From a bacterium (GTDB lineage Bacteria > Patescibacteriota > UBA1384 > 2-12-FULL-50-11), in assembly GCA_021463485.1 (NCBI GenBank), contig JAJTYJ010000001.1:65378-129377 (forward strand): a DNA stretch of 64,000 nucleotides, in the 5' to 3' direction. A program made the position numbers and the translations under genes. The notes under the pieces were generated by a model, which was not told the DNA's origin, made no database searches, and saw only the letters and a list, made by a program, of their open reading frames with translations. Shown piece after piece: positions 26,934 to 51,376 of the stretch. How positions within the stretch are numbered: the first letter of the stretch is position 1; the number at the start of each line of letters is the position of its first letter.

Positions 26934-26940
26934 ACTCCTC

Positions 26941-27270: not shown

Positions 27271-27452
27271 TTACCCTCCAAACTAGTACTATATACCTAG
27301 TTATACTAGGCTTATAAGCCTAGTGTCAAGAGGGAGTTCTATAGATATTGAACACTCGATTCCCTGCCAGTTAAGCGACGATTATCTGGGTACAAAAAGA
27401 CCCCGTCCCCACACAATTGCCGCTTAACTGTCGTGCAATCTCGCTTAGTGGA

Positions 27453-30948: not shown

Positions 30949-32228
30949 GCTGCCGCTCCTTTCTTAACGGCGGCCGATTTGGCGCGGGAAGAAGCAACTT
31001 CGGCCGGAGCCGGACTGACGACATTAAGGAACTGGCCGCCGAATTTCTTAAAGATGCCGGTCGCTTGAGTAGCTAAGGTCAGCTGGACCGTCATCGCCGT
31101 GCTCTTTAAGAGAATCGAGAATAAGGCAATGCCGATCAAAATCGAGATGAACGGGTTGGTATTAACCTGGTTCGGGATCGTCAGGAAGGCCGAAGCGAGC
31201 TGAATGATAACGACGTGGATAAAGAGGCTGAAGATCATGACGATATAGGTCTTAGCGGCGGCTTCGGCAAAATCGCTCATCTTCGGCATCAGCCACAAAA
31301 GACAAAGAAGCGGAGCCATCACTGCGCCGAAAGCCAGGATCATCAACCGGCTGACATAGAACAAGAGGAGAATAACCGCCAGCAAGATAAAGACGACCAT
31401 AAAGATCAACGTAATCAGCAGCGTCCCGCCGGTTGCCAAGGCGGCCGGATCGAAAGCATTTAGTATCCAGGCCGAGCCGATACCGCCGGTGGCGTTCAAG
31501 ACCGCATTGATCAGTGTTTGGCAAAGCGTAATGATCCAGTCGATCAAGAAGATCGAGGTGTTGGCCAGTAAGAAGGCTAAGCCGATTCTCGGTAGTAATT
31601 GTTTCAACGGCACATCTTCAAATCCGAAGGTTGAAGCGCTCATAACTTGGAAACCTAAAAGCGCGATACCTAAGGCAAATAGTGAATCGGTAATCCCGAT
31701 CATCACCAGCCAAAAGTTGAAGACAACGGAGTTGGTCGAAAGCATCGGCGTGCTTGTCAGGAAATGAATAATCCCGTCGATGATCGGTTTGGTCGCCGAC
31801 TGAACGATGTTTTGGAGGAAGCCGGCGATCGCCTTCATAATCACTTGGGCCAACGAACCGTCGTCGGCTTGCGGCTCGATCGGCGCTAAGTTAATGGCCG
31901 TACCGAGCGCCGGCGTATTCGGTTCGGTAAAGGCCGACGAGAGCATCGAAGAGAACACGGCCGCCGCAATGACAATGACCAGACCGATTAGAGCTTGGCG
32001 GATGGTTCGCTTAGCCTCAGACAGCGCTTCCGGCTTGCCGGTTGAAGTGATATAGACGTAACCGCCACGGATTAAAAAGAAGGCCGCAGCTAACCCGGCT
32101 ACGGATATTAATACCGTTAAGGTGTCTTGAGTGAATCGGGCGACTTCGCCGTTAGAGGCGGCTAAAGCCGAAGCGGGCGCGAGCAAGACCGTCCCCGCCA
32201 GCAAGAGTGCGGTGAACAGTCGTTTCAT
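30945..32228 (-). CDS. VirB6/TrbL-like polytopic T4SS membrane protein with N-terminal pilin-like module
   Basis: Signal peptide; the first ~100 aa are similar to the adjacent VirB2-like pilin, followed by ~7 TM helices. Confidence 0.5.
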   Translation of the reverse strand: MKRLFTALLLAGTVLLAPASALAASNGEVARFTQDTLTVLISVAGLAAAFFLIRGGYVYITSTGKPEALSEAKRTIRQALIGLVIVIAAAVFSSMLSSAFTEPNTPALGTAINLAPIEPQADDGSLAQVIMKAIAGFLQNIVQSATKPIIDGIIHFLTSTPMLSTNSVVFNFWLVMIGITDSLFALGIALLGFQVMSASTFGFEDVPLKQLLPRIGLAFLLANTSIFLIDWIITLCQTLINAVLNATGGIGSAWILNAFDPAALATGGTLLITLIFMVVFILLAVILLLFYVSRLMILAFGAVMAPLLCLLWLMPKMSDFAEAAAKTYIVMIFSLFIHVVIIQLASAFLTIPNQVNTNPFISILIGIALFSILLKSTAMTVQLTLATQATGIFKKFGGQFLNVVSPAPAEVASSRAKSAAVKKGAAA

Positions 32229-32233
32229 TTCTT

Positions 32234-32563
32234 TTATTTACCGAATGCGGTGGTTGCCAACTCCGAGATAGCGTTACTAAGGACAAAAGCCCCGATCGAG
32301 ACCGCTAAGCCGATTCCCGAATAAATAATCGTTCGCTTTGACCGATCCAAGTGCTCCGGATTACCGGAACTGGTGATGTAACCGATCCCTCCCATTACAA
32401 AAAACCCGGCCGCAAGGAGGCCGGCAAACGTCACCAGGATCGTGATAGCGTTCTGAATAAAGTTCTGTACTTTAGCGACATCAGCAGGGGCGGCCATGAC
32501 CGGGGCAACCCATACGAGAGCGAGCAATAACGAAAGACCGAACGTCCGAAGGCGAGTGGACAT
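32234..32563 (-). CDS. VirB2/TrbC-like pilin
   Basis: 109 aa; signal peptide ending AAPA, two hydrophobic helices separated by the short polar loop SSGNPEHLDRSKR. Confidence 0.5.
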   Translation of the reverse strand: MSTRLRTFGLSLLLALVWVAPVMAAPADVAKVQNFIQNAITILVTFAGLLAAGFFVMGGIGYITSSGNPEHLDRSKRTIIYSGIGLAVSIGAFVLSNAISELATTAFGK

Positions 32564-32769
32564 ACATATCCTTTCTCCCCTCCGCAGTTGTAAATTAATA
32601 ATTAATTAACAGTCGAGTATGTTAATTTGCCTACGTAATATCACCTCTGGCATATGCTTGTCAAATATTTAGCTCTGAAAGCACTCTTTACTAGCATATG
32701 TTGTTTGTGGTAAACCTACCGTAAACAAGCACCATTCCGCTATCGGAGGGGTAATACGGAAGCAAGTTT

Positions 32770-35358
32770 ATGAACGTATTTCCCTCAATCACCATCAGCT
32801 TAGAAGCGATCCGTCTGCTTGGGTTGTACGCCCTGGGCGTTATTGGAGTTTGGGTCGTTCTCGCCTGTGTCACCCGGTTAGTCGCGTTCTATCAGCGCTT
32901 AAAGCAAGAGTCGGTTTTGCTGGAAGTTATTCCGCCGACTGATACGGAAGTACCGGCAGTCTCGACCGCCCAATTATTCACTCTTGTTTACGGTTTGTTA
33001 CGCCAGCGATCCTTAGCGGATCGTTTTTTGTTGCGACAGCCGAACTGTTCGCTGGAGATCGTGTCGCACAAAGAAACCGGTATCCGCTACTTATTCCGAG
33101 TACCGAAAGGTTTGGCCGAGCCGATGGAACGGAGCCTCAGAGCCTACCTGCCGGCCCTCAAAGTCAAAGAAGCAGACGAATATCTGCCGGATGAATTGCC
33201 GAAAGGATTAAAAGCAAAGGTCTTGGAGTTTAAGCTCGCTGGACACCCGGCTCTGCCACTGAGCGACCAGACCGACTTAAAGCGTCACGACCCGCTGGTC
33301 TATCTGACCGGCAACATGACACAGCTAAAAGACAATGAGCTATTGGCACTTCAACTTGTTGTTGAGCCGGTCGGAAACTATCGGCAGAACCGCCTCAAGC
33401 GCAAAGCCCTTAAGATCCAACCTTCGGCATTGGCTTCGCAGCGAACAGTTGATCGGGTGGCAAATGTTGTCGAAGCGGTTGTCGGGCTGCTGATGATTCC
33501 GTTCTTAGTTTTGTCAGAATTTGTTACGAGCCAGAAGACAACACTGCCGAGCCGCAAGATTACACCGAACAAGGGCACTCCTGCTCATCAACCACTGGAG
33601 GAACTAACTAATTCCAAGCTCGATCAGCCGCTTTTTGAAACGTCGGTCCGTGCTTTATTGATAGTTGAGAAGAGCCAGCTAAAGACTCGTGAGCGTGGTT
33701 TACTCTCGGCTTTTATGAGTTTCGCGCACCCTATTGGACAGTCGCTAACTAATAAGAAAAACTGGCTCGGCAGAGTCGGTCAAAAGCTGCGCCGCTGGCA
33801 GTTCAAAAGCCGCTTAAATACGCACGGCTTGATACTCTCGGCCTCGGAAGTCGGCGCGCTGTATCACTTCCCGTATACCAAAACGATTCGGACAGAAGAC
33901 TTGATTAAATCCAAAAGTCGCGAGTTGCCAGCGCCGCTTTCGCTCAAAAACAATCGTGAGTTAGATACCGTCTTTGCACTCAATCGCTACGGCAACAGCG
34001 AAACAAACATCGGCTTAACGGATGACGAGCGCTCGCGGCACATGTATCTAATCGGCCAGACCGGTTCCGGTAAATCGACCGCGATCTATCATATAGCGGC
34101 CAGCGACATCGCCAAAGGGCGAGGCTTAGCCGTTATCGATCCGCACGGCGACTTGGCCGAAGACTTACTGGCTACCATTCCGGAATCAAGAATTGACGAT
34201 GTGATTTACTTTAATCCGTTTGATATTGCTCATCCGATCGGCATTAATTTATTAGAACTGCCGCCTAGCCTGACTGACGACGAGCTGGAGCTGGAAAAGG
34301 AATTCGTCTGCGAAAGTATTGTTTCCATTTTTCGTCGCATCTTTAACAAGGACGAGAATACCGATGCCCACCGAATCGAATACATTTTGCGCAACACTAT
34401 TCACACTGCCTTTACGGTTGAAGACGCGACAATCTTCACGGTCTACGAATTGCTGAATAATCCACAGTTTCAAAAGCAGGTTATCGCCCGGTTAAAAGAT
34501 GAGAACCTGCGAAGCTTTTGGAAGAACGAGTTCGGTAAAGCCGGCGACTACCAGATCGTTAAAATGGTCGGCGGTGTAACCGCCAAGATCGGTCGCTTTT
34601 TGTTCTCGCCGATTGCCAAGCGGATTCTGGAGCAACCGAAGTCGACGATCAATTTTGAAGAAATTCTGAATTCTGAGAAGATCCTGATCTGTAACTTGGC
34701 TGAGGGAAGAATCGGCGAAGATACTTCTCAGCTCCTCGGTACGATAGTAATCGCCAAGATTCATCAGGCCGCTCAACGCCGGGCCCGCAAAGCATTATCA
34801 AGTCGGACGCCGTTTTATTTATTCGTCGACGAGTTCCAGAACTTTGCTACCAGCTCGTTTACCAAGCTACTGTCGGGCGGACGAAAGTTCGGCTTAAGAA
34901 TCACGATTGCCGAGCAATCGACGGCTCAGCAATCGGACCGCTCCATCGTCGACGTGATTCTGGCCAATACCGGCGTTGTGGTTTGTTTCCGCACCGCCAG
35001 CCCGGTCGATGAAGAATTGATGCTGGCGCAGTTTGCGCCGCTCGTTAAAACCGGCGATATCGCTAATCTGCCGCGCCATAAGTTCTATATGCGCCTAGCC
35101 GCAATTGAAGCCGAAGATCCGTTCTCCGGCGAAACCATCCCGATTAATAGTCAACGCGACTTGGCAATGATGGAACGGTTGATTAACGCTTCGCGGACGA
35201 ACTACGCCATTCTGTACCAAAAACCGGAACCGCAGGCCGTGACTCCGATTACGAGAAGAGAGCCCACAACAGCTCCCGCCAAGCCCGGGAAGACATTAGG
35301 ATCGCTGAGTAAGAAAAGAGCAGCAGCTGATCCGAATTTGAATCCCGCAACTGGTTAG
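32770..35358 (+). CDS. Type IV secretion coupling protein (VirD4/TraG/TraD family)
   Basis: N-terminal TM helices, YLIGQTGSGKST Walker A, LFVDEFQNF Walker B region, 862 aa. Confidence 0.8.
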   Translation: MNVFPSITISLEAIRLLGLYALGVIGVWVVLACVTRLVAFYQRLKQESVLLEVIPPTDTEVPAVSTAQLFTLVYGLLRQRSLADRFLLRQPNCSLEIVSHKETGIRYLFRVPKGLAEPMERSLRAYLPALKVKEADEYLPDELPKGLKAKVLEFKLAGHPALPLSDQTDLKRHDPLVYLTGNMTQLKDNELLALQLVVEPVGNYRQNRLKRKALKIQPSALASQRTVDRVANVVEAVVGLLMIPFLVLSEFVTSQKTTLPSRKITPNKGTPAHQPLEELTNSKLDQPLFETSVRALLIVEKSQLKTRERGLLSAFMSFAHPIGQSLTNKKNWLGRVGQKLRRWQFKSRLNTHGLILSASEVGALYHFPYTKTIRTEDLIKSKSRELPAPLSLKNNRELDTVFALNRYGNSETNIGLTDDERSRHMYLIGQTGSGKSTAIYHIAASDIAKGRGLAVIDPHGDLAEDLLATIPESRIDDVIYFNPFDIAHPIGINLLELPPSLTDDELELEKEFVCESIVSIFRRIFNKDENTDAHRIEYILRNTIHTAFTVEDATIFTVYELLNNPQFQKQVIARLKDENLRSFWKNEFGKAGDYQIVKMVGGVTAKIGRFLFSPIAKRILEQPKSTINFEEILNSEKILICNLAEGRIGEDTSQLLGTIVIAKIHQAAQRRARKALSSRTPFYLFVDEFQNFATSSFTKLLSGGRKFGLRITIAEQSTAQQSDRSIVDVILANTGVVVCFRTASPVDEELMLAQFAPLVKTGDIANLPRHKFYMRLAAIEAEDPFSGETIPINSQRDLAMMERLINASRTNYAILYQKPEPQAVTPITRREPTTAPAKPGKTLGSLSKKRAAADPNLNPATG

Positions 35359-35410
35359 AGCTGTAAAAAAGTAGAGTCTTTATTAATATATATACTCTCT
35401 TCTTACTTCT

Positions 35411-36151
35411 TTGCTTTCCGCCATGGAACAAACAACATCCCTTCACCTAACCCAACGCCACACCGACATCCTGCTTTTACTGTACCGCTTCCGCTACCTG
35501 ACCCGCCCGCAAATCCAAACACTTCTTAATTACAAAAACCATCGTCAAACCATCGAACTGCTCAACATACTCACGGCACACGATCACGTCAGAAAGTACT
35601 ACGATCGAAAGTCAGCAGTCATACCGGCAGTCTATTCGTTAGGAAAGGCTAGTAGAGCTGTGTTAAAGAAACTGGATATGCCGTCATCGGAGTTAAAACG
35701 TATTAGCTGGGAGAGAAACTATACGCCGGCCTTTCGCGACAGATGCGTTTTCGTTGCTCAGATTTATCTGGATCTGATGAAACAAACGGGAGGGGCGCTT
35801 GGCTTTTGGACCAAAGCCGACCTGAACGGCGTCGAGAACATACTTGCTCCGGCACCGGATGCCTATTTTACTATTGGAGCGAAGCGATATTTCCTGGATG
35901 CCCCACTAACCGTGCCTGGCAAGGCGCTCCGCAATCGAGCTAGAAAGTATGCCGATTACTTTACTGACGGGGAATGGCGGGAAGAGGAAGACAGCGTCTT
36001 CCCAGAGGTGATTATTCTCTGCTCAAATCCGCGCTTAGCCAAAGGTTTGTCGTACTACATTAAAAAAGAATTCTCGGACGAGCCCGATCTCCACTTTCTT
36101 GTGAGTTCTGATCGGTCTCTGGAGAAGCTACTGCCAAAGAAAAAGGCCTGA
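35411..36151 (+). CDS. Replication-relaxation (Replic_Relax)-like winged-helix protein
   Basis: LTQRHTDILLLLYRFRYLTRPQIQTLL N-terminal wHTH pattern typical of the Replic_Relax family on Gram-positive ICEs/plasmids. Confidence 0.4.
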   Translation: MLSAMEQTTSLHLTQRHTDILLLLYRFRYLTRPQIQTLLNYKNHRQTIELLNILTAHDHVRKYYDRKSAVIPAVYSLGKASRAVLKKLDMPSSELKRISWERNYTPAFRDRCVFVAQIYLDLMKQTGGALGFWTKADLNGVENILAPAPDAYFTIGAKRYFLDAPLTVPGKALRNRARKYADYFTDGEWREEEDSVFPEVIILCSNPRLAKGLSYYIKKEFSDEPDLHFLVSSDRSLEKLLPKKKA

Positions 36152-36175
36152 GGCAGTTAACCCCAGACCCTTCTC

Positions 36176-36502
36176 TTACTTTTCGTCGCTGATGTATAGA
36201 ACCTTCTTGCGGTGAAACCAAAAGACGTGCTGGTAGTGAATCCAGTGCGCCTGATTACGCGATAGACGCGATCGATCCCGCATGACGATATATCGGATCT
36301 TCGAGTTGCGAAGGCATTTCAACAGCCTTCGAAAACCCGGCCGGTCTTTCCGCATCCCGCTGATACCGCTATCCGACTCAAAGCCGGTCAGTTCCAAGCC
36401 GTGCTTCTTACAGTACGCTTCGATCTGCGCGTGTTGCTCGGCCAGCGAGTCAGGATTGACCGTCGCTGAGCGCACGTACCCGATCGCTTGTTTGCCAGCC
36501 AT
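36176..36502 (-). pseudogene. Serine recombinase (resolvase/invertase) catalytic-domain fragment
   Basis: IGYVRSATVNPDS...RLSRN resolvase catalytic-domain motifs, but only 108 aa with no HTH domain. Confidence 0.45.
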
Positions 36503-36816
36503 TAGTACTCCTCAGCTAACATCACCGTTAGCGTTCGCTTGCAATTTTCCGAGAGCGGATCGCACCAGCCGGAATACGTCGGATTGTAGTAGTCGATCTT
36601 CCAGAAGATCTTCTTGCCGTACCAATACAGCTGACCGAAATCATGTTCGCCGTACGGATCGCTCTTTTCATCGAACTTATCATAGTTGCGAACCGCGTGA
36701 AGCAATCCGTCGATCTTCGGCAAGGCGTGAACACCCTGCGTCAGGGTAATGCCGAATCCCAGCTCCCGGAACCGATCGTTGAATCGTGCCTGTTTCGATA
36801 ATACCTTTGTAGTCAT
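36502..36816 (-). CDS. Hypothetical protein
   Basis: 104 aa ORF; 1-nt overlap with the downstream resolvase fragment. Confidence 0.35.
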   Translation of the reverse strand: MTTKVLSKQARFNDRFRELGFGITLTQGVHALPKIDGLLHAVRNYDKFDEKSDPYGEHDFGQLYWYGKKIFWKIDYYNPTYSGWCDPLSENCKRTLTVMLAEEY

Positions 36817-37076: not shown

Positions 37077-37694
37077 ATGACAAAAGGCCTCAAAGTCGGA
37101 GTGGGGTGCTTAGCTATCCTTGTAATAGGCATCATTATTAGCGTGATCGGTGGCTCAAATAACCAAAATAGTCAGCAGAGCAGTAATGTCTCTGAAGTGA
37201 GTGAGCCCTCATTCACCCTTACCGAACTCAAAATAAAGATTGGTCAACTTACCAGCGATGAAAATCAGGCAAACTTGGCAGGTAGCTATGAGTCGCCCGA
37301 TCAGGAACAGATGAAAGACCCGGAAAGAATTGTGACTGACTATAAAGATGGTGACACTGTTACCGTTGAGGGTGATTTTGTTGAAGTGGTTGCGTCATAT
37401 ACGGGACCACCACTAAAAAAAGAGGGCTTTCTTTCGACCCCCAGCAGGTTTAGTGCAACTGGACCTCGTCATGTTAGTGAATCATCAGTTACACACGCGG
37501 GAGGCGGCAGCAGTTGGGTTATTCGTGACGGTAAGGCGAAAGTAACTTTCTTACCGCTCAGCTACGTTAATTATCTTGATGATGGAGAAGTGGTGTTAAC
37601 GCTTCGGCTCGAGTCCGAAAAAGGACAAATTTTCGAGAAGAAAATAAAGTTCTTCGTTGACGACCACGTACGACGCGAGAAGTACCGTCAGTAA
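37077..37694 (+). CDS. Hypothetical membrane-anchored secreted protein
   Basis: N-terminal TM followed by an S/N/Q-rich linker; 205 aa. Confidence 0.4.
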   Translation: MTKGLKVGVGCLAILVIGIIISVIGGSNNQNSQQSSNVSEVSEPSFTLTELKIKIGQLTSDENQANLAGSYESPDQEQMKDPERIVTDYKDGDTVTVEGDFVEVVASYTGPPLKKEGFLSTPSRFSATGPRHVSESSVTHAGGGSSWVIRDGKAKVTFLPLSYVNYLDDGEVVLTLRLESEKGQIFEKKIKFFVDDHVRREKYRQ

Positions 37695-37695
37695 A

Positions 37696-38346
37696 TCAAT
37701 CTTTCTTGAACTCTTCCTCGGCTTTTAAGAATTGAGTCGCGACTGAGCCGACTACTGTTCCGATCGTACCGATTCCGATAATCATCAGCATCATGGCAAC
37801 GATCCGTCCGGCTGTAGTGACCGGGTATATATCGCCATATCCGATAGTAGTGACCGTTACCATCGCCCACCAAAAGCTATCGAAAAGATTGTGAATATTT
37901 TGATTAACACCGAATTCGTAACTGTGAAAAGCAACTGCTCCCATGAAAACGAGCGTAAAGACGGTCAGAATAATCGAAAGTAACTGGAACTTCGGACCGT
38001 CTAAATAAAAATCAGCCACCCTGCGCATTCTAGCCATCAAGCGAATAATTCGTAAGACCCTTAACAATCTAAGGCTTCGTAGAACCTGCGTCGTTGTGTT
38101 TGTAATTGGTATGGAGGCCAGGAGTTCGTACCAGCGTTTACGGAAAAATAAAGCCTTGTTTTTAGCCTTCACAAAGCCATAAATAAAGTCGGCCAGAAAA
38201 ATTAGCGCAATTCCTAAATCCAGCCTGCTGATTAACGTGCTCGTCGATGCAGTTACGTCATGATTTATTTCGAAAACCAACAGTCCCGTTGAAAGGATTG
38301 CCAGGATTACTAACCCAAAATCCAAGAAGATCTCGCTCTTTTTCAT
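37696..38346 (-). CDS. Voltage-gated potassium-channel-like ion transport protein
   Basis: TIGYGDIYP selectivity filter (TxGYGD), S4-like RSLRLLRVLRIIRLMARMRR arginine repeat, pore helix and S6. Confidence 0.8.
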   Translation of the reverse strand: MKKSEIFLDFGLVILAILSTGLLVFEINHDVTASTSTLISRLDLGIALIFLADFIYGFVKAKNKALFFRKRWYELLASIPITNTTTQVLRSLRLLRVLRIIRLMARMRRVADFYLDGPKFQLLSIILTVFTLVFMGAVAFHSYEFGVNQNIHNLFDSFWWAMVTVTTIGYGDIYPVTTAGRIVAMMLMIIGIGTIGTVVGSVATQFLKAEEEFKKD

Positions 38347-39236
38347 TAAATTAGTTTATCAATGAGTGCTATTGCCCCATGTGCAGCGATGTTACCTGCG
38401 GCATTAATCAGTATCTCTCTTGTGGCTTTGAGTAGCTTCCCTATCTTTGAACTTTTTGGATCTGTCTTCACAGTCTTTTCTAGCTCCTGAAGATTCGAGT
38501 CTAGTTCACGCTTTTTATTTTCCGGGAGCTCTATATCGGGCGCAAACTTTCTTATTTGTTCTACTAGGCCCAAGACCTTTTCCGCTGAAATATTGGCGAC
38601 GAATGTTGAGTTAGTGTTTGTAGCATTACCGATCGTGCCAGAAAAATTCTCAATATTATTAATTGTGTATTGTACTTGCGGGGAGCTAGCCTTCTCCTTA
38701 TCTTCTTCAGTAAAATCTAAGTCGTGGCCGACAATCCCCATGTCCTCAAGTTTTAAACTCCAGCTAAGCACAGCGTTCCTGACACCATCAATAATCCCTT
38801 TAAGCTCACTATGTTGTGTAAAGAAATTTATTTCCGTTTCAAAATCAATTGCTTTCGCGATTGTGTTTCGTGCTTCCGGTCCCAAAGGAAGGTAATACGA
38901 GCCATCAACCTTTCCCTCTTTTACTAAATTCTCAACTTCTCCAATCGGCTGAATTACACCCTTTTTTGATACGAGTTCATGGACCTTCTTGTCTTCAATT
39001 ATTATAGTCTGCCACCCTCGAACAGGATTAAGCGCCCTTAACTGCCCGGAAACTATTCGATAAGCCGGTAAATCTTTCTCGGTGGAATCGTAGCCATTTA
39101 ACTCACTCTCGATCCAGGCAAGCATATCATCAAGCTTCAGCTTACTGGCGATGACTTTTGCTTTGAGAAGTAAATTAGTTACCGAAACAGTTGGGGTTAG
39201 TACGTCTCGTTGTAATTCTTTTACTATTGCGCCCAT
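38346..39236 (-). CDS. Hypothetical protein, possibly AbiTii-like abortive-infection N-terminal domain
   Basis: 296 aa; N-terminal LLLKAKVIASKLKLDDMLAWIESELNGY resembles the AbiTii family signature as recalled from memory (not checked against a database); stop overlaps the K-channel start (ATGA). Confidence 0.35.
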   Translation of the reverse strand: MGAIVKELQRDVLTPTVSVTNLLLKAKVIASKLKLDDMLAWIESELNGYDSTEKDLPAYRIVSGQLRALNPVRGWQTIIIEDKKVHELVSKKGVIQPIGEVENLVKEGKVDGSYYLPLGPEARNTIAKAIDFETEINFFTQHSELKGIIDGVRNAVLSWSLKLEDMGIVGHDLDFTEEDKEKASSPQVQYTINNIENFSGTIGNATNTNSTFVANISAEKVLGLVEQIRKFAPDIELPENKKRELDSNLQELEKTVKTDPKSSKIGKLLKATREILINAAGNIAAHGAIALIDKLI

Positions 39237-39247
39237 TCGATCTCTTT

Positions 39248-40378
39248 TTAGCTCGAGAAAATATCGACGTACTTTTTGTAGATATACGTTCGATCATAGG
39301 TTTCGTTTTCATCTTTCGGCTGGAGAATACCAAGCGCAATGAAGCGATCAATAACTTTCTGCGCTCCTGCCCGAGTGTAGCCAGTCCAGTCCATAATGAT
39401 TTTGGTCGAAACGATTGGCTGCGCATAGAGTTTACGTAGTACCAAGACACCGCTTTCCGACTCGCGCTTAGCGAGTGCCTGAATTTTAAGCATATCGTCT
39501 TCGCGAAGTTTAGTAATTTCTTTAGAAATCCGAATGGATTCGTTGGCTGTTTCCATGACACCCTCAAGGAAAAAGTCGAGCCAGCTCCACACCTCTCCGT
39601 CATGGTAGCCGTTAAGCCTATTGTAATAGAGTTTTTGGTGTTTTTTGAAAAACGTCGACAAGAAAAGCACCGGCCGCTCAAGTAGGCCGTGATGGCAGAG
39701 TAGCATCGTAATCAGCAGGCGTCCTGTCCGACCATTACCGTCGAGGAATGGGTGGATAGTTTCAAACTGAGCGTGCATTAAGGCTGCATGAATGAGAGGT
39801 AGGGTTTGATTCTCAACATGAAGAAAAGTTTCGAATTCGCTGAGCGATCGCTCCATTTCCAAAATCGGTGGTGGGACAAAGAAAGCGTTGGCCGGAGAAG
39901 TCCCACCAATCCAGTTTTGAGTCTTACGAAACTCACCTGGATCAGCAAAGTGGGTAGCTCGCGCCCCGGTCATCAGCTCTTTGTGAATTTCTTTAATCAG
40001 CCGTAACGACATCGGAAAATTCTTTAGTCGTTCGGTTCCATACTCCAACGCTTTGATGTAGTACAAAATATCACCAGCGTCAGTCTCTTGAGTCGCCACA
40101 CCGCCTTCCTTCTCAATTGCATCAACAATGGTTGCCTTTGTTCCCTCAATCTGTGAAGAAGAAGTGGCATCCTTTAAGACAAACATTTTCAAGAAAAAGT
40201 CGACATCTGGCAAAGTGTGGGTGATGCCATCGAGTTTTCCTACCAAACGGCCAGCCTCCGCGGTTTTTATCTGAATTTCTGAGGGCAAATCAAAGATACC
40301 TTCCGGCGGAAAAGCATTCGGAACGAAAGCTTCGTAGCCTTGCGACTGAAGGATGTTCTTTCCAATTTCGATATTCAT
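39248..40378 (-). CDS. Fic family protein (AMPylase/phosphocholine transferase fold) with C-terminal wHTH
   Basis: IHPFLDGNGRTGRLL matches the canonical Fic motif HPFx[DE]GNGR. Confidence 0.85.
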   Translation of the reverse strand: MNIEIGKNILQSQGYEAFVPNAFPPEGIFDLPSEIQIKTAEAGRLVGKLDGITHTLPDVDFFLKMFVLKDATSSSQIEGTKATIVDAIEKEGGVATQETDAGDILYYIKALEYGTERLKNFPMSLRLIKEIHKELMTGARATHFADPGEFRKTQNWIGGTSPANAFFVPPPILEMERSLSEFETFLHVENQTLPLIHAALMHAQFETIHPFLDGNGRTGRLLITMLLCHHGLLERPVLFLSTFFKKHQKLYYNRLNGYHDGEVWSWLDFFLEGVMETANESIRISKEITKLREDDMLKIQALAKRESESGVLVLRKLYAQPIVSTKIIMDWTGYTRAGAQKVIDRFIALGILQPKDENETYDRTYIYKKYVDIFSS

Positions 40379-40497
40379 TTAGTTAGTTTGCATACCCTTA
40401 AGCTATATATACTATCTTAAGACTTAGTATACTTCTTGTCAAGCCATGCATACTAACTTTTTTGTCAATATAGTGCCGGCAATATGCAGAAATACTC

Positions 40498-41145
40498 CTA
40501 CGGAACGTAGTATAGAGAGCTTGAGCCTTTGGCAGTATTCAAATCTTCGAGCGAGAAAGCTATCTTTCCGATTTTTCCGTTGGCTTCGGTAATAACCTGA
40601 ATCATTTTAAACGGTTTGATCTCGTCGATATTCTGCCAATACGTCACCGTTCGGCCTTGGATTCCGGGGTTTCCTTCGGGTGTTGCCTTGGGCTTACTGA
40701 ATCCGGTAATTGCCCAGGCGGTAGTCTCGTCAAGCGGGTTAGCCGAAAAAGAATACCCGGCGTAGATCGGCTTGTTATTGGCAACGCTGAAATCAACTTG
40801 AACATTCGCCTGATTCAAATCAAAGCCGGTAATTTTTACTTTCTTGGACGGCGTTAAACTTCCTTGGCTAAAGTCTTTAGCAATAGCCGCGTAATCCGCT
40901 CTGATCTGCGTTTCGGTTTTGCCGAACAGCTCAACAGCCGAAACCGTTTGAACGCTCTGTGGAGTCGGAGCGGTTTGATTAACTGCGGCAGTAGAAAAAT
41001 CCTCAGTCGGAGCTTGAGTATCGCCACCGGCAAACAAGCCGATCAATATAAAGAACCCGACAATAGCGAGAGCAGTAAATAATATTTTCTTGCCTTTCGA
41101 CATCAGCGCTTTATTTGTGTTTATCAATATAGGTCCTCTAGCCAT
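40498..41145 (-). CDS. Hypothetical membrane-anchored protein
   Basis: N-terminal TM; 215 aa. Confidence 0.4.
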   Translation of the reverse strand: MARGPILINTNKALMSKGKKILFTALAIVGFFILIGLFAGGDTQAPTEDFSTAAVNQTAPTPQSVQTVSAVELFGKTETQIRADYAAIAKDFSQGSLTPSKKVKITGFDLNQANVQVDFSVANNKPIYAGYSFSANPLDETTAWAITGFSKPKATPEGNPGIQGRTVTYWQNIDEIKPFKMIQVITEANGKIGKIAFSLEDLNTAKGSSSLYYVP

Positions 41146-43548: not shown

Positions 43549-43990
43549 CTTAATTAAAGATATGGCAATTGATGAGCAATCCTTTAACGAATTCATTGAG
43601 ATCTCCGGTTTTTCCAAGGAAGTGCCGCTGATCATTGCCGAAGACGAAGACGAGCTTCATCAATATCGCGCCCAGCTGCAAAAGGCCGGTTATGAAGAAC
43701 AAGAATCGGTTTATCACCTCGTTCAGGCTTCCCACAAAGGTTCGAAGAATTACCTGGTACTCGACGGTCACCATCCGTTCACTTTAAAGCAGGCCTACGA
43801 CTTCGTTGTTCAGTACCCGACCGGCCAAATTGAAGTTTCCGACCAGGTGACGATGCAGAAAGCGATTTTCTCGCCCAATTATAAAGAAAACCGAACCGTT
43901 CTGTTGGTAACCAAGCGAGAGCTGGCCGAAATCCAGAAAACCGGTTTAACGTTCTTGTCCCGAGTCGGGGCAACCTATCAACATGCCTGA
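43526..43990 (+). CDS. Hypothetical protein (possible vWA-MoxR-associated protein; DGHH motif)
   Basis: 154 aa ORF overlapping both neighbours (operon-coupled); contains YLVLDGHHPFTL. Confidence 0.4.
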   Translation: MKDMTSSDLIKDMAIDEQSFNEFIEISGFSKEVPLIIAEDEDELHQYRAQLQKAGYEEQESVYHLVQASHKGSKNYLVLDGHHPFTLKQAYDFVVQYPTGQIEVSDQVTMQKAIFSPNYKENRTVLLVTKRELAEIQKTGLTFLSRVGATYQHA

Positions 43991-46082
43991 ACCAGGATCA
44001 CCGGAACACCAGCCAGACATGGAGGCGGAGGCGCAAGCCGAAGTCGTCGCTCCCGACGTTGAAACCGAACAACCGGCCGGCCCGATCGCCGAAACGGAGA
44101 ACAGCGTTTCCTATCTCGGCGTGGAGCTGAAAAAAGCCGAAGCGGAAAAGAGCCAATTCGTGCCGGATCGAGAACACTATAAAGATTACATTAACGACCA
44201 ATTCTCGCTCGAGCTTCAGCAGAAGCTGGCCGTCAGTTTTCTCCAAGGCGAGCCGATGCTCTTGGAAGGCGGCACCAGTATCGGTAAGACGACGACCGTT
44301 CGAAAGATGGCTTCCGAACTCAATTGGGAAGTCCACTACGTCAACTTAAACGGCGCCAGCGACGTTGAAGACTTGATGGGCCGTTACATCCCCAACCCTC
44401 ACCGCCAGATGATCGGGGATCCCGAATACATCTTCGCCGACGGCAAAGTCACGTCCGGCTTGCGCCTGGAAGAGGGCAAGCAGAAAGTCGTCATTCTTGA
44501 TGAGCTGAACGCCGCCCCGCCGAACATTTTAATTCGTCTCCACGAAGTACTCGACGCCTTGGAGCGGGGCACTGAAGTGGTCTTGTCGGAAGACGCGTCC
44601 GAGGCCGTCAGGGTTAATCGCGAGCAGACCAAAGTCGTCGGACTGATGAACCCGCCGGGCAAAGGTTATTTTGCTCGTGAACCGCTCGACCCGGCTCAGC
44701 TTCGTCGCTGGAACTATCAGAAAGAGGCCTCGACACTGCCTGACGAGACGTTCGCGCACGCTACCGACGTTCTCTTCGGCTTGGCTACGGAAATGGATCC
44801 TAACGCCGTACCGCAAGAATCCTATTTAACGACTCGCGATCAGCGGCTAATGCCCGAGCAGTTGGCCGAGATCCCCGGCATTCAAGAAGTGCTCGGCAAA
44901 TACAAAGAATTTCATAAAGCGGCCAAAGAAATGGTCAATAATCGCACGGTTGCCGCCGATCAGCCGCAGCGCTTTACCTACGACGATCGCATGGAGCCGA
45001 GAAGGGTCAAAGAATTCGTTCAACAGTTCTACAACGGCGACATTAATGAAACTTTCCAAAAAGCTCTTCAGTATTACTACTCGAATAAAGTTGAGAGCAA
45101 ACAAGATAAACAAAAACTCGACGAGCTGATCAAACACGTCGCCTACGTACCGCAAGAGGCGACGCAACGTCGCGGTGCCGAACGTGAAGCGCCCGACGGT
45201 GCGGCAGCAACCGCCGCGCCGGACACCCGTATTCCGGAAACAATTACGCCGCTCTCTGGAGAGCTGCTTGAACAAGTCACGGAGGCGCAGAGAATTCTCG
45301 GTGCCGAAAACGTTGTCTCGCCGGACAAAGTTCGGGAAATCCTGGGCCTTAAGATTGATCTTGAGAAAGTTCCGGCCATTCCGTTCTCCAAAGAAGAACT
45401 CGAGCGAGCCAAGGAACTCGGCCAGTTTCTCGTTTATCGCCACGACAGAGATGATCGTGCACGCCACTTGACGATGGAACGACTTCAGGAACTCCTGCAA
45501 CCGAAGTTCGATAAAGAAGACGACGGCAAAGTTCTCTACGATACCAGTTGGTACAAGAACGAAGACTTCTTCACGAAAGAAGCGATGCGTTCAGGCTGGG
45601 CGTTGACCAGCCGAGAAGTCATTCCGGATTCGACCAGCAAGAACTATCTCCAGCAGACTGGTGAAATAGCGACCTATCTCGGCACGAAAGTCATGAAAGA
45701 AATCGCCGATCCGAAATTACGCGCTGAATACGGCGAAGCGATCAAAGAATACGAAGTTAAACGAGTAGCAATTGAGAAAATTATTGACTCAGACTGGAAA
45801 GAAGCCGCCAAACAATTGGAAGAACTGAAGCTTAATAAGCTCTTCCGCCAAACGCTGGTCGAAGCGATGTACGATACCGCCATGTACCTCGAGAACCGAC
45901 CGAAAAGCGAACGAGACGACGCTCGTTTGTTGGAAGACATGTACGGCTGGACCAATCGGCGTTCGTCCGATGGCCACCTGGTGTATGCCGGTGCATTCCA
46001 CGCCTACGGCCTGCACGTGGACGACGATCGCCCGGGCCGCGCGCCTTCCGATGTCGGTGTCGTCCTCTCCCGCAATCGCTAG
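43983..46082 (+). CDS. MoxR/AAA_5-type AAA+ ATPase with C-terminal lectin-like DGR target domain
   Basis: GGTSIGKTT Walker A, VVILDELN Walker B, MNPP sensor; C-terminal 40 aa encoded by the DGR variable repeat. Confidence 0.75.
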   Translation: MPEPGSPEHQPDMEAEAQAEVVAPDVETEQPAGPIAETENSVSYLGVELKKAEAEKSQFVPDREHYKDYINDQFSLELQQKLAVSFLQGEPMLLEGGTSIGKTTTVRKMASELNWEVHYVNLNGASDVEDLMGRYIPNPHRQMIGDPEYIFADGKVTSGLRLEEGKQKVVILDELNAAPPNILIRLHEVLDALERGTEVVLSEDASEAVRVNREQTKVVGLMNPPGKGYFAREPLDPAQLRRWNYQKEASTLPDETFAHATDVLFGLATEMDPNAVPQESYLTTRDQRLMPEQLAEIPGIQEVLGKYKEFHKAAKEMVNNRTVAADQPQRFTYDDRMEPRRVKEFVQQFYNGDINETFQKALQYYYSNKVESKQDKQKLDELIKHVAYVPQEATQRRGAEREAPDGAAATAAPDTRIPETITPLSGELLEQVTEAQRILGAENVVSPDKVREILGLKIDLEKVPAIPFSKEELERAKELGQFLVYRHDRDDRARHLTMERLQELLQPKFDKEDDGKVLYDTSWYKNEDFFTKEAMRSGWALTSREVIPDSTSKNYLQQTGEIATYLGTKVMKEIADPKLRAEYGEAIKEYEVKRVAIEKIIDSDWKEAAKQLEELKLNKLFRQTLVEAMYDTAMYLENRPKSERDDARLLEDMYGWTNRRSSDGHLVYAGAFHAYGLHVDDDRPGRAPSDVGVVLSRNR
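45959..46079 (+). repeat. DGR variable repeat (VR) at the 3' end of the target gene
   Basis: About 120 nt that align with the template repeat at 46376-46497; nearly all mismatches lie where the template repeat has A. Confidence 0.8.
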
Positions 46083-46375
46083 TCTCGGACCTTGGCTCTT
46101 GGGCCCTTGGATTTATCGGCCGCCGGCGAAGCCGGCTCGCGCGAATTTTTGTAAATCAGCCCTCCCCCTCTTTAATTCCTTTGTAACATATGCTAAAATT
46201 CACCTGCCAATGAGGCTGCGTTCACGGACTCAGCCCGGCCGAATAGTAAGAAGATTGCTTGCGTTTTACTGGCGCGGGTGGCAAAACTTTTGCCTGCCGC
46301 CGCATTGTTATACGGGCACGGTCTCTATTTCTTAGTGCATCGGTGCCGCTGACTGAATTGGGAAAACGCAAAGGA

Positions 46376-46497
46376 GCGTTCGTCCAATGGCAACCTGGTG
46401 TATGCCGGTGAATTCAACGCCAACGGCCTGAACGTGGACAACGATAACCCGGACAACACGAATTCCGATATCGGTGTCGTCTTCTCCCGAAATCTCA
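46376..46497 (+). repeat. DGR template repeat (TR)
   Basis: Intergenic A-rich copy of the VR; encodes NPDNTNSDIGVV, a lectin-type consensus; lies between the target gene and avd/RT. Confidence 0.8.
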
Positions 46498-46553
46498 CGC
46501 TATTCACAAAGCTTAGTCTCAGCTCACCGGCTGAGATTTCGCTTAACGTTCGG

Positions 46554-46934
46554 TTAATTATTAGCGTTTAAGCTCTGAACGGATTTAATCCAACCGCCGA
46601 GCATTCGACCGATTTCCTGCAAAATTTCTTGTAAGTGGATATAAGCTTTCCGGTCGACAGCGCGAAGATCGTAAGCCAACCGAATGAAGACCTTAACCGT
46701 TTCGAGCTGAAGACTGGCGTTCTTGAGGTGATTCTCTTTGTCGCTGCCGGAAGTTTCACAAGCGGCGAGCAGGCATTTGAGTAGGTCCAGAGTTTCGTCC
46801 TGAAGGGTTTGGCCGGTCGCATAGCGTTCAATCTTGGGAAAACGCTGAACTTGTAGGTGCAGAAGTCTGTAAAAATCATAAGTTTTCTGGGTAATCGGCA
46901 CGCCGCCCAGCAATTGTTGAGAAAGAATTTCCAT
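46554..46934 (-). CDS. avd: DGR accessory variability determinant (Avd; four-helix-bundle family)
   Basis: About 127 aa from Met 46934; FPKIERYATGQTL...LQEILQEIGRMLGGWIKS matches the Avd/23S-IVS four-helix-bundle pattern. Confidence 0.65.
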   Translation of the reverse strand: MEILSQQLLGGVPITQKTYDFYRLLHLQVQRFPKIERYATGQTLQDETLDLLKCLLAACETSGSDKENHLKNASLQLETVKVFIRLAYDLRAVDRKAYIHLQEILQEIGRMLGGWIKSVQSLNANN

Positions 46935-46995
46935 TAAGAAACTATTACTACACGAAGGAAGCTTTGACCAGGTTGTCTCAGTCGACAACCTCTTT

Positions 46996-51305: not shown

Positions 51306-51376
51306 GCGGGAGTGGTTCAATGGTAGAACTCCTGCCTTCCAAGCAGGTGACGCGGGTTCGATTCCCGTCTCCCGCT
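51306..51376 (+). tRNA. tRNA-Trp (anticodon CCA)
   Basis: GCGGGAGTGGTTCAATGGTAGAAC..CTGCC-TTCCAAG-GCAGG..GCGGGTTCGATTCCCGT.CTCCCGCT. Confidence 0.8.

What the first reader, a model, noticed from the sequence alone, without database searches (positions are those of the whole stretch)
37696..40378. Fic - AbiTii-like - voltage-gated K+ channel operon: candidate ion-channel-effector abortive-infection/toxin module
Three co-oriented genes with near-zero spacing on the minus strand; the middle gene's stop overlaps the channel start (ATGA). They are: a Fic protein (HPFLDGNGRTGR), a 296-aa protein whose N-terminus resembles the AbiTii abortive-infection signature (KAKVIA..L.....W...ELNGY, recalled not searched), and a compact 216-aa Kv-like channel (TIGYGD filter plus S4 arginine repeat). 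A bona fide voltage-gated K+ channel coupled to an Abi-like sensor on a mobile element would be a plausible membrane-depolarising effector system. I do not recognise this combination as a described defence system.
Basis: inference. Interest (0 to 1): 0.75.

Follow-up and report, generated by a model that had tools for sequence, protein, structure and literature searches.

The report
Two defence genes plus potassium channel
Two known phage-defence genes (a SoFic-type Fic enzyme and a single-chain AbiT protein) sit in one tight operon with an ordinary-looking voltage-gated potassium channel, but this pairing occurs nowhere else I could look, so the channel is probably a neighbour rather than the defence system's weapon.

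Summary
Three abutting minus-strand genes encode:
- a SoFic-type Fic protein (PADLOC 7.5e-105);
- a 296-aa AbiTii-domain protein (Pfam 3.7e-41) whose C-terminus matches AbiTi, i.e. a fused single-chain AbiT;
- a 216-aa KvAP-type 6TM K+ channel.

One detail is wrong: the AbiT/channel junction is TAATG (1-nt overlap), not ATGA.

- **Pairing is unique.** 29 other AbiTii loci have no channel. About 185 other channel loci have no AbiTii.
- **AbiT looks autonomous.** At least 286 homologues are stand-alone proteins, all listed at 282-328 aa.
- **The channel looks autonomous.** Its closest relatives (85-89% aa, synonymous sites saturated) sit beside unrelated genes. More distant ones sit beside rplS, ATP synthase epsilon and MgtE.
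- **Tight spacing means little here.** 19 of 45 co-oriented pairs in the window overlap or abut, and related channels overlap Obg or LysR genes.

Best reading (0.58): a small defence islet of two autonomous abortive-infection genes co-transcribed with an autonomous K+ channel.

A weaker, more novel reading stays open. One relative abuts a CBASS cyclase plus SLATT pair, and Kv-like channels sit in repressor operons of Firmicutes prophages. Small Kv channels may therefore be recurrent conflict accessories.

The parts
40414..40442 (-). Promoter-like site TTGACA-17-TAAGAT upstream of the Fic gene. It is the only such site placed to drive all three genes.
   Evidence: 10 of 12 matches. Consensus scan only; the total number of such sites in the region is not above shuffled expectation.
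39248..40378 (-). SoFic-type Fic protein adenylyltransferase (376 aa). It has an Fic_N domain containing an inhibitory-helix motif SSQIEG, and the catalytic motif HPFLDGNGRTGR.
   Evidence: Fic_N 4.9e-18, Fic 1.4e-19; PADLOC SoFic 7.5e-105, residues 14-375 against profile 5-359 of 361; NCBIfam SoFic 7.3e-41, but 140 bits against an equivalog cut-off of 550.
38346..39236 (-). Single-chain AbiT (296 aa). It has an N-terminal AbiTii alpha+beta domain (about residues 1-185), a disordered Asn/Thr/Ser-rich linker (196-214), and a C-terminal AbiTi-like four-helix bundle (218-295) ending in a conserved GAAGN motif.
   Evidence: PF18864 3.7e-41; PADLOC AbiTii 4.6e-44; AbiTi 4.8e-7 on residues 209-295; 12 of 14 homologues also hit AbiTi; the C-terminal module is found stand-alone or fused to AbiTii; AF2 model, pLDDT 79.9.
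37696..38346 (-). Compact KvAP-type 6TM voltage-gated K+ channel (216 aa). S4 carries R90/R93/R96/R99/R102/R106; the filter is TTIGYGD. It has no cytoplasmic ligand-binding domain. Its start codon overlaps the AbiT stop (TAATG), and no Shine-Dalgarno sequence of its own is visible.
   Evidence: invariant D43, E74, S4 arginines, GYGD; KvAP 1ORQ 2.5e-23 over residues 8-208; hydropathy; NCBIfam best hit is the MVP-type Kv, below cut-off.
37077..37694 (+). Convergent 205-aa membrane-anchored protein of unknown function. Its stop lies 1 nt from the channel stop. It belongs to the same chromosome-like GC3 block but is not assigned to the operon.
   Evidence: no family; one N-terminal TM segment; GC3 0.44.
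40498..41145 (-). Upstream co-oriented 215-aa membrane-anchored protein of unknown function, separated from Fic by 119 nt that contain the promoter-like site. Probably a separate transcription unit.

Best explanation
The locus is a small defence islet, not a three-part machine.

**What each gene does.**
- The Fic gene is a SoFic-type auto-inhibited AMPylase. By analogy with characterised SoFic, it kills or arrests the infected cell by AMPylating targets.
- The 296-aa gene is a complete AbiT system in one polypeptide. The AbiTii N-domain is the predicted phage-sensing or regulatory part. The fused AbiTi-like four-helix bundle is the predicted effector; its chemistry is unknown.
- The 216-aa gene is an autonomous voltage-gated K+ channel of a family widespread in candidate-phyla-radiation (CPR) and other bacteria.

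**How they relate.** All three are probably transcribed from one promoter upstream of Fic. Channel translation is coupled to AbiT termination at TAATG. The channel itself is gated by membrane voltage, not by AbiT, and serves ordinary K+/membrane-potential homeostasis. Its place in the operon reflects gene packing in a very compact genome and the accumulation of defence genes in variable regions.

**Shown:** gene identities, architecture, the junctions, uniqueness of the pairing, and autonomy of both families.

**Inferred:** co-transcription, the SoFic and AbiT mechanisms (by homology), and the lack of functional coupling.
For: **Both defence genes belong to single-gene systems.**
- SoFic: full-length PADLOC hit at 7.5e-105.
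- AbiT: all 14 first-round homologues share the two-part architecture, and 12 of 14 hit AbiTi at the C-terminus. A profile search finds at least 286 proteins carrying only PF18864; the 120 listed are 282-328 aa.
- The C-terminal module occurs either as a stand-alone AbiTi-like protein (23 of 67 hits) or fused to AbiTii (41 of 67), and never with a channel. Both the two-gene and the fused forms are seen on viral contigs.

**No co-occurrence.**
- 29 distinct AbiTii loci have no channel within 3-5 kb: 2 metagenomic, 10 plasmid, 17 viral. They sit in type I R-M, TIR, CBASS, Abi and toxin-antitoxin neighbourhoods.
- About 185 channel loci have no AbiTii.

**Channel autonomy.**
- The four closest channels have saturated synonymous differences (pS 0.77-0.95) but pN of only 0.06-0.11. 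They keep the cytoplasmic tail KAEEEFK(K/R) whatever lies upstream: AbiT, SLATT, CYTH or a P-loop kinase.
- In L001 and L013 the channel has its own promoter-like motif.
- Relatives at 50-53% identity lie next to rplS, ATP synthase epsilon and MgtE.

**Tight spacing is uninformative.**
- 42% of co-oriented pairs in the window overlap or abut.
- Related channels overlap methyltransferase and LysR genes by 4 nt and lie 6 nt after Obg.

**Composition.** GC3 of the block matches the chromosome.
Against: - The channel has no recognisable ribosome-binding site, and its ATG overlaps the AbiT stop. Its expression is therefore tied to AbiT.
- The closest channel relative (89%) is likewise joined with 0-nt spacing to a complete CBASS cyclase plus SLATT 2TM effector pair.
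- 4-5 of 10 neighbourhoods in this channel clade contain defence-type genes within two genes. Immediate neighbours of 75 generic channels hit mostly unspecific PADLOC models instead: helicases, kinases, HTH regulators.
- Kv-like channels are carried in lysogen-expressed repressor operons of prophages.
- Kv channels are almost absent from plasmids (1 record in 72,556), so one next to conjugation genes is unusual.
- No synteny at all is shared among the ten clade loci.
Confidence: 0.58

Rival explanations
1. Generic conflict accessory, or an autonomous exclusion gene carried by mobile elements. The small Kv channel needs no specific partner. It responds to the membrane-potential change caused by infection or by neighbouring abortive-infection effectors (SLATT pore, AbiT, SoFic-induced collapse). 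It then either amplifies the collapse through K+ efflux or buffers and repolarises to limit self-damage. Alternatively it acts on its own against superinfecting phage, in the same way as genes co-transcribed with prophage repressors.
For: - The same highly conserved channel is translationally joined to two unrelated defence systems: AbiT in the window, and CBASS cyclase plus SLATT in L014/L015.
- In L106 a 58%-identical channel lies after an ImmA/M78 peptidase gene and a 124-aa gene. It lies 79 nt before a 275-aa protein whose C-terminus hits PDC-M14B, a PADLOC family that also matches the AbiTi-like C-termini of AbiT homologues.
- In prophages, Kv-like channels directly follow ImmA (M78) or the CI repressor (HTH+S24). 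An integrase-like ORF lies within 1.5 kb in 46 of 80 loci and in 11 of 23 channel clusters. This mirrors lambda cI-rexA-rexB.
- Conservation independent of the partner is what a voltage-only trigger predicts.
Against: - There is no experimental precedent for a canonical 6TM Kv in defence, and nothing in PADLOC matches it.
- The clade sample is small (10 loci) and was classified after the fact.
- CPR genomes have high defence density anyway (PMC12259885), so adjacency is expected more often.
- Several relatives are in plainly core contexts.
- Prophage channels are only about 32% identical and may serve lysogenic conversion unrelated to defence.
Confidence: 0.27
2. Dedicated Rex-like two-component abortive-infection system. 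The cytoplasmic AbiTii protein senses a phage product and directly opens the channel, depolarising the cell. Fic is a third, separate or regulatory, component.
For: - Gene order (sensor, then membrane channel) and translational coupling resemble rexA-rexB and Sbash gp30-gp31 (PMC7542560).
- The AbiTii domain is regarded as a sensor/regulatory N-domain attached to varied effectors (PMC3710099).
- Ion-channel effectors are proven in Hailong (PMC13434031).
Against: - The pair is unique to one contig family in a 5.8-billion-protein collection. The best other AbiT homologue is 38% identical, whereas channels at 85-89% identity exist without it.
- The AbiT protein already carries its own AbiTi-like C-terminal module, as hundreds of stand-alone homologues do.
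- The channel has almost no cytoplasmic surface for a partner (7-residue N-terminus, about 10-residue C-tail), and that surface does not vary with the partner.
- GC3 of AbiT (0.39) differs from that of the channel (0.50).
Confidence: 0.1
3. Toxin-antitoxin-like operon in which the downstream genes restrain the Fic toxin. The analogy is the small AS1 antitoxin gene found downstream of E. coli SoFic.
For: - SoFic is toxic, and in E. coli it is neutralised by a 47-aa protein encoded immediately downstream (PMC12249575).
- Here AbiT starts 11 nt after Fic.
Against: - The downstream genes are a 296-aa AbiT and a channel, not a small antitoxin.
- This Fic carries its own inhibitory-helix motif (SSQIEG).
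- AbiT homologues occur without Fic in all 29 loci examined.
Confidence: 0.05

Closest known systems
AbiT (AbiTi + AbiTii) abortive-infection system of Lactococcus lactis
   Same: - AbiTii domain at 3.7e-41, with the conserved glutamate (E45) noted by Anantharaman et al. 2013.
- The C-terminal region matches the AbiTi model.
- Homologues live in defence islands and on plasmids and prophages.
   Different: - Both parts are fused in one 296-aa chain instead of two genes.
- Only about 30-38% identity to any other member.
- The mechanism of AbiT itself is unknown. A review suggests a nuclease-like AbiTi, which my fold searches neither confirm nor refute.
- Followed here by a channel gene that no other member has.
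SoFic (single-gene Fic AMPylase defence; Shewanella oneidensis / E. coli Sofic)
   Same: - Full-length match to the PADLOC SoFic model (7.5e-105).
- Fic_N plus Fic architecture, canonical HxFxDGNGRxxR motif, and an N-terminal SxxxEG inhibitory motif.
   Different: - Scores far below NCBIfam's equivalog cut-off (140 against 550 bits), so it is a distant family member.
- There is no small AS1-like gene downstream.
- It heads an operon with two further genes.
KvAP / MVP-type prokaryotic voltage-gated K+ channels
   Same: - S1-S6 align end to end with KvAP (2.5e-23).
- S4 has six Arg at every third position.
- Acidic counter-charges D43 and E74 are invariant in the family.
- TTIGYGD selectivity filter.
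   Different: - Very compact (216 aa) with a shortened S3-S4 paddle and essentially no cytoplasmic termini.
- Gating polarity is unknown.
- Its genomic setting, behind defence genes, is unusual.
RexA/RexB of phage lambda, and Sbash gp30/gp31
   Different: - No homology to RexA (DUF4747) or to the 4-TM RexB.
- The pairing is not conserved.
- The sensor already has its own effector-like domain.
Hailong (HalA DNA-gated ion channel + HalB nucleotidyltransferase)
   Same: A tetrameric cation-channel-type membrane effector used for abortive infection. It shows that K-channel-like folds can be defence effectors.
   Different: - HalA has a large cytoplasmic ligand-binding crown and is held closed by oligo-dA made by HalB.
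- Here there is no nucleotidyltransferase and no cytoplasmic domain.
- The Hailong-like system in P4 hotspots has an IRK (inward-rectifier) channel domain with pentapeptide repeats (PMC13586616), not a 6TM Kv.
Type I CBASS with SLATT 2TM effector
   Same: It occupies the same position, immediately upstream and abutting, relative to the closest homologue of this channel in L014/L015.
   Different: It is not present in the window. It is relevant only as a second, independent defence system joined to the same channel.

Membership tests
AbiT (AbiTi/AbiTii) | AbiTii domain (PF18864) above the Pfam gathering score | tested here: met
   141.8 bits against a cut-off of 27.6, E 3.7e-41, residues 4-185. 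PADLOC AbiTii 4.6e-44.
AbiT (AbiTi/AbiTii) | Conserved glutamate and core residues of the AbiTii alpha+beta domain (Anantharaman 2013) | tested here: met
   E45, G48, Y59, R60, G74, W75 and W159 are invariant in a 78-sequence alignment. The AF2 model gives an alpha+beta N-domain.
AbiT (AbiTi/AbiTii) | Presence of the AbiTi component | tested here: met
   PADLOC AbiTi 4.8e-7 on residues 209-295. 12 of 14 homologues hit it as well. The module is also found as stand-alone 99-240-aa proteins and as a separate upstream gene in L214 and L216.
AbiT (AbiTi/AbiTii) | Two separate genes, as in the lactococcal prototype | tested here: not met
   Single 296-aa ORF. The fused form is the common one in this subfamily.
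AbiT (AbiTi/AbiTii) | Confers an abortive-infection phenotype against phage | not testable with these tools
   Needs phage challenge.
SoFic | Fic catalytic motif HxFx(D/E)GNGRxxR | tested here: met
   HPFLDGNGRTGR in the translation. Pfam Fic 1.4e-19.
SoFic | Fic_N domain with inhibitory helix motif (S/T)xxxE(G/N) | tested here: met
   Fic_N 4.9e-18. SSQIEG read directly in the sequence. The motif definition is from my own knowledge of class II Fic proteins.
SoFic | Full-length similarity to SoFic models | tested here: inconclusive
   PADLOC SoFic 7.5e-105 over the whole profile. NCBIfam equivalog only 140 bits against a cut-off of 550. It is a family member, not an equivalog.
Voltage-gated K+ channel (KvAP type) | K+ selectivity filter T-(V/I)-G-Y-G-D | tested here: met
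   TTIGYGD; Y170, G171 and D172 are invariant across 26 homologues.
Voltage-gated K+ channel (KvAP type) | S4 helix with at least 4 basic residues at every third position, plus acidic counter-charges in S2/S3 | tested here: met
   R90, R93, R96, R99 and R106 are invariant and R102 nearly so. D43 (invariant) and E74 (nearly invariant) are also conserved.
Voltage-gated K+ channel (KvAP type) | Six-TM architecture alignable over S1-S6 with a solved Kv | tested here: met
   Residues 8-208 align with KvAP 10-220, E 2.5e-23. Hydropathy finds S1, S2, S5 and S6, with S3/S4 amphipathic.
Voltage-gated K+ channel (KvAP type) | Voltage-dependent K+ conductance | not testable with these tools
   Needs electrophysiology. 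Polarity is also unknown: the NCBIfam best hit is the hyperpolarisation-activated MVP, below cut-off.
Rex-like sensor + ion-channel abortive-infection pair | Sensor and channel genes conserved as a pair across genomes | tested here: not met
   0 of 29 AbiTii loci have a channel, and 0 of about 185 other channel loci have AbiTii.
Rex-like sensor + ion-channel abortive-infection pair | Homology to RexA/RexB or other catalogued membrane effectors | tested here: not met
   The channel has no PADLOC hit at E<=0.01. The sensor is AbiTii, not DUF4747.
Hailong | HalB-type nucleotidyltransferase next to a channel with a cytoplasmic oligo-dA-binding domain | tested here: not met
   No nucleotidyltransferase in the operon. 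The channel has only about 7 and 10 cytoplasmic terminal residues. Hailong models are not in PADLOC 2.0, so sequence homology was not tested directly.

The most novel reading that the evidence does not exclude
Small, partner-less 6TM voltage-gated K+ channels may be a recurrent and so far unrecognised accessory of prokaryotic conflict systems and mobile elements.

The same conserved channel is translationally hitched to unrelated abortive-infection modules: single-chain AbiT here, and CBASS cyclase plus SLATT in its closest relative. Kv-like channels also ride in the repressor (cI/ImmA) operons of many Firmicutes prophages.

The channel would turn the membrane-potential change of an infected or effector-damaged cell into K+ flux, either to amplify collapse or to buffer it. 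It needs no dedicated sensor protein.
Probability: 0.25. Interest if true: 0.75.

Novelty: new member of a known kind. Interest (0 to 1): 0.38.

Why it matters
If the best reading holds, the locus adds divergent SoFic and single-chain AbiT members from an uncultivated CPR-like bacterium. It also shows that operon-like packing in compact genomes can mimic a multi-gene system. That is a useful caution for guilt-by-association discovery of defence systems.

If the minority reading holds, canonical voltage-gated K+ channels would gain a role in prokaryotic immunity or phage exclusion. Their physiological role in bacteria is a long-standing puzzle. That role is directly testable with the E. faecalis prophage channels, which are in a cultivable host, and with the cloned operon.

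Tried and rejected
- **Genome-contig scan with the channel alignment.** I used these as background, not as clade members.
- **Metagenome-contig scan with the single channel.** Only 10 loci, mostly short.
- **Viral-contig scan with the single AbiT protein.** Nothing. The alignment-based scan gave 17 loci.
- **tblastn against phage records.** No match for AbiT or for the channel at 1e-8.
- **hhalign of the proteins downstream of the channel in L106 and L013 against the AbiT alignment.** Not significant (probability 5% and 0.1%). The L106 link to the AbiTi-like module therefore rests only on the shared PADLOC PDC-M14B hits.
- **The idea that the C-terminus is a transmembrane helix.** Rejected: maximum 19-residue hydropathy is 1.39, and the region models as a soluble four-helix bundle.
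- **Cassette boundaries and regulatory elements.** I found no cassette-boundary repeats, ncRNAs or terminators around the trio.
- **The 205-aa and 215-aa flanking proteins as paralogous borders.** Rejected; the only similarity is in their signal/TM segments.
- **Lack of synteny as evidence that the channel is mobile.** Downgraded, because synonymous sites are saturated and the genomes are therefore too distant for synteny to be expected.
Full report
**1. Observation**

- Fic, 39248-40378, 376 aa, containing HPFLDGNGRTGR.
- A 296-aa ORF, 38346-39236.
- A 216-aa ORF, 37696-38346, with TTIGYGD and an S4-like LRSLRLLRVLRIIRLMARMRR.

The Fic stop and the next start are 11 nt apart, with an AAAGAGA stretch between them. 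The 296-aa gene and the channel share one base (TAATG, not ATGA as written). A promoter-like TTGACA-17-TAAGAT lies at 40442-40414 upstream of Fic. No terminator-like site separates the genes. The channel stop is 1 nt from the stop of a convergent 205-aa gene.

**2. What the genes are**

*Fic.* It has Fic_N plus Fic domains. It matches the PADLOC SoFic model over its full length at 7.5e-105. It reaches only 140 bits against NCBIfam's 550-bit equivalog cut-off, so it is a distant member of the SoFic family. SoFic is a single-gene abortive-infection AMPylase (PMC12249575) and one of the commonest defence families in groundwater bacteria (PMC12259885).

Its residues 209-295 match the PADLOC AbiTi model at 4.8e-7. 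It is therefore both AbiT components in one chain.

*The channel.* It matches Ion_trans and Ion_trans_2. It aligns from S1 to S6 with KvAP (1ORQ, 2.5e-23). Six S4 arginines, D43, E74 and GYGD are invariant or nearly so across 26 homologues. It has only about 7 N-terminal and 10 C-terminal cytoplasmic residues and no ligand-binding domain.

**3. Setting in the window**

The window is chromosomal, with ten tRNA genes and RNase Y.

To the left of the trio lie:
- a large serine recombinase, an M23 peptidase and a VirB4-like ATPase;
- TrbL-like and T4SS pilin genes and a VirD4-like coupling protein (Pfam marks on the window's own contig);
- a Replic_Relax relaxase, a truncated resolvase and DUF3768.

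To the right lie a CobT/VWA protein and an AAA_5 protein, followed by a diversity-generating retroelement.

GC3 is 0.52-0.69 in those two flanks. It is 0.39-0.50 in the five-gene block 37077-41145, the same as the rest of the chromosome (0.40-0.51). The trio is therefore either native DNA caught between two insertions or compositionally host-like cargo. 'On a mobile element' is not established.

**4. Does the pair recur?**

No.
- The first protein search found only 14 AbiT homologues, the best at 38% identity. Channels at 85-89% identity exist, so close relatives of the channel lack this AbiT.
- I examined 29 distinct AbiTii loci: two metagenomic, ten plasmid and 17 viral.
- An HMM built from 120 channel homologues finds no channel in any of them. 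The two hits printed are L200 and L201, channel loci that I included by a range error.
- These AbiT genes are stand-alone 'hypothetical proteins' inside type I R-M operons or next to ThsB-TIR, CBASS, Abi and toxin-antitoxin genes.
- Conversely, an AbiTii HMM finds nothing in about 185 channel loci other than the window's own contig.
- A profile search returns at least 286 AbiT homologues carrying only PF18864. The 120 listed are 282-328 aa, mostly 293-311.

**5. AbiT is self-contained**

- All homologues share the N-domain, linker and C-module layout, and 12 of 14 hit AbiTi.
- I searched the C-module alone against 1.84 billion representatives. It gave 68 hits, always at the C-terminus of the hit protein. 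Excluding the query itself, 41 are fused to AbiTii and 23 are short stand-alone proteins like lactococcal AbiTi. None is channel-like.
- On viral contigs L214 and L216 the module sits in a separate upstream gene, which is the classical two-gene AbiT.
- The module ends in a conserved GAAGN-x3-G motif. It is not hydrophobic enough for a membrane helix.
- AlphaFold2 (pLDDT 79.9) gives an alpha+beta N-domain, a disordered linker (196-214) and a four-helix bundle (218-295).
- The literature treats AbiTii as an N-terminal sensor-type domain fused in other bacteria to HEPN RNases (PMC3710099). It describes AbiTi as endoribonuclease-like (PMC13064643). I could not verify the latter.

**6. The channel is autonomous, in variable company**

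I recovered ten distinct neighbourhoods for the clade.

| Locus | aa identity to window channel | Neighbourhood |
|---|---|---|
| window | 100% | SoFic, AbiT, then channel |
| L014/L015 | 89% | CBASS cyclase (2.5e-24), SLATT 2TM effector (NCBIfam 1.3e-20), then channel with 0-nt spacing |
| L013 | 85% | CyaB-like CYTH, 36 nt, then channel |
| L001 (Berkelbacteria) | 87% | 2H phosphoesterase, P-loop kinase, 50 nt, then channel |
| L106 | 58% | M78 peptidase, 124-aa protein, channel, then a PDC-M14B-like protein |
| L109 | 59% | SNase, 6 nt, then channel |
| L111 | 53% | stand-alone; DpnI convergent downstream |
| L194 | 50% | near MgtE |
| L195 | 53% | near rplS |
| L200 | 51% | bactofilin and ATP synthase epsilon |

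- The only gene shared by any two of these loci is the channel, and DNA similarity stops at the CDS borders.
- That does not prove mobility. Synonymous differences among the four closest genes are saturated (pS 0.77-0.95), while pN is 0.06-0.11. These are anciently diverged genomes and a strongly constrained protein.
- The cytoplasmic tail KAEEEFK(K/R) is the same whatever gene lies upstream. That argues against partner-specific gating.
- In L001 and L013 the channel has its own promoter-like motif, GGTTCGGGAGTACAAT.

**7. How much does the tight junction mean?**

Little.
- In this window 19 of 45 co-oriented ORF pairs overlap or abut, and 27 lie within 15 nt.
- Among generic Kv-like channels from species-representative genomes, the gene overlapping the channel start by 4 nt is a methyltransferase, a LysR regulator or a DUF3817 protein. 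Obg GTPase ends 6 nt upstream of one.

**8. What keeps the novel reading alive**

- 4-5 of the ten clade loci have defence-type genes within two genes of the channel.
- By contrast, 145 immediate neighbours of 75 generic channels hit mainly unspecific PADLOC models (UvrD helicase, kinase, HTH regulators). No CBASS, SLATT, AbiT or SoFic model is among the 25 families listed.
- The two cases of zero or negative spacing in the clade both follow a defence system.
- The L106 downstream protein shares a PADLOC family (PDC-M14B) with the AbiTi-like C-termini of AbiT homologues, although hhalign does not support the link.
- Independently, 311 IMG/VR contigs encode Kv-like channels. In Enterococcus faecalis prophages the order is cro | cI, ImmA, channel, integrase.
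- Across 23 channel clusters, 11 have an integrase-like ORF within 1.5 kb.
- The gene directly upstream of the prophage channel is ImmA/M78 or a CI-type HTH+S24 repressor, with -4 to +8 nt spacing. This is the position of lambda rexAB relative to cI.
- I found no paper describing this in the searchable library.

Against over-reading these points: CPR bacteria have unusually dense defence repertoires (PMC12259885), the clade sample is small and was classified after the fact, and Kv channels are nearly absent from plasmids.

**9. Mechanism**

*Best explanation (0.58).* SoFic and single-chain AbiT are two independent abortive-infection genes. The Kv channel is an autonomous, voltage-gated K+ channel that shares their transcript, and by termination-reinitiation their translation, because of genome compaction.

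*Rivals.*
- Generic voltage-triggered conflict accessory or mobile-element exclusion gene (0.27).
- Dedicated Rex-like AbiT-plus-channel pair (0.10).
- Fic toxin with downstream neutralisers (0.05).

Gene identities, architecture and non-recurrence of the pair are shown. Co-transcription, the SoFic and AbiT activities, and the absence of coupling are inferred.

**10. Comparison, novelty and score**

The locus works like two known single-gene defences next to a KvAP-type channel. It fails the membership tests for a Rex-like or Hailong-like channel-effector system: there is no conserved pairing, no homology and no cytoplasmic gating domain.

It is a new, divergent member of known kinds (SoFic; fused AbiT). 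The unusual operon partner is interesting mainly as a lead.

Interest is 0.38. The most novel reading not excluded has a probability of about 0.25 and would deserve about 0.75.

Noticed in passing
window 43983-47964: A complete diversity-generating retroelement. The variable repeat 45959-46077 lies at the 3' end of the 699-aa AAA_5 protein gene. The template repeat is at 46376-46494 (85% identical). 17 of 18 mismatches fall at template adenines. bAvd is at 46554-46988(-) and the reverse transcriptase at 46996-47964(+). An AAA_5 (MoxR/dynein-like) ATPase paired with a CobT/VWA protein is an unusual diversification target.
   Followed up: partly
window 25329-36816: A conjugative-element-like segment with higher GC3 (0.52-0.69) than the chromosome. 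Genes in order: large serine recombinase (its 3' end overlaps a predicted tRNA-Pro(tgg) at 25332-25407 on the other strand), M23 peptidase, VirB4-like ATPase, TrbL-like protein, T4SS pilin, VirD4-like coupling protein, Replic_Relax relaxase, truncated 108-aa resolvase, DUF3768. Boundaries were not determined.
   Followed up: partly
window 51306-51441: The last 17 nt of tRNA-Gly(tcc) (51306-51377) plus 5 nt downstream form an exact 22-nt sequence (51361-51382) that is repeated at 51420-51441. It looks like an att-site scar of an integration or excision event.
   Followed up: no
L014 1292-3333 (and L015): The closest relative of the channel (89% aa) directly abuts (0 nt) a minimal type I CBASS: a 305-aa CD-NTase/SMODS cyclase and a 158-aa SLATT 2TM effector that overlap by 4 nt. 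The cluster lies downstream of a core phosphoglycerate mutase gene.
   Followed up: partly
L125 4245-7065; also L160, L165, L173, L184 and other IMG/VR loci L114-L193: Kv-like 6TM channels (about 240 aa, about 32% identical to the window's) sit in the lysogeny module of Enterococcus faecalis and other Firmicutes prophages. They come directly after ImmA (M78) or the CI repressor, and in E. faecalis (L125) directly before the integrase. An integrase-like ORF lies within 1.5 kb in 46 of 80 loci and in 11 of 23 channel clusters. 311 viral contigs encode relatives. I found no description of this in the searchable literature.
   Followed up: partly
L106 1278-3950: A 58%-identical channel lies after an ImmA/M78 peptidase and a 124-aa membrane protein. 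It lies 79 nt before a 275-aa protein whose C-terminus (153-271) hits PADLOC PDC-M14B (2.5e-6). The same candidate family matches the AbiTi-like C-termini of AbiT homologues (P0002 at 9.3e-9). hhalign does not confirm the relationship.
   Followed up: partly
L214 1375-2685; L216 4335-5642: On two viral contigs AbiT occurs in the classical split form: an upstream gene of about 215 aa carrying the AbiTi-like module, followed by an AbiTii-only gene of about 218 aa. This shows that the fused and split forms are interchangeable.
   Followed up: partly
L001 about 5951-6000 and L013 about 4965-5000, plus repeats elsewhere in both loci: A conserved intergenic motif, CTCGAC-N(11-13)-GGTTCGGGAGTACAAT, lies just upstream of the channel start in two Berkelbacteria-like contigs. 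It recurs in other intergenic regions of the same contigs. It is a candidate lineage-specific promoter.
   Followed up: no
L008 173-2186 and L109 1-1545: Staphylococcal-nuclease-type secreted nucleases turn up next to an AbiT homologue (L008, divergent) and next to a channel homologue (L109, 6 nt upstream). This is probably coincidence, given how common these nucleases may be in small-genome bacteria (my own impression, not tested).
   Followed up: no
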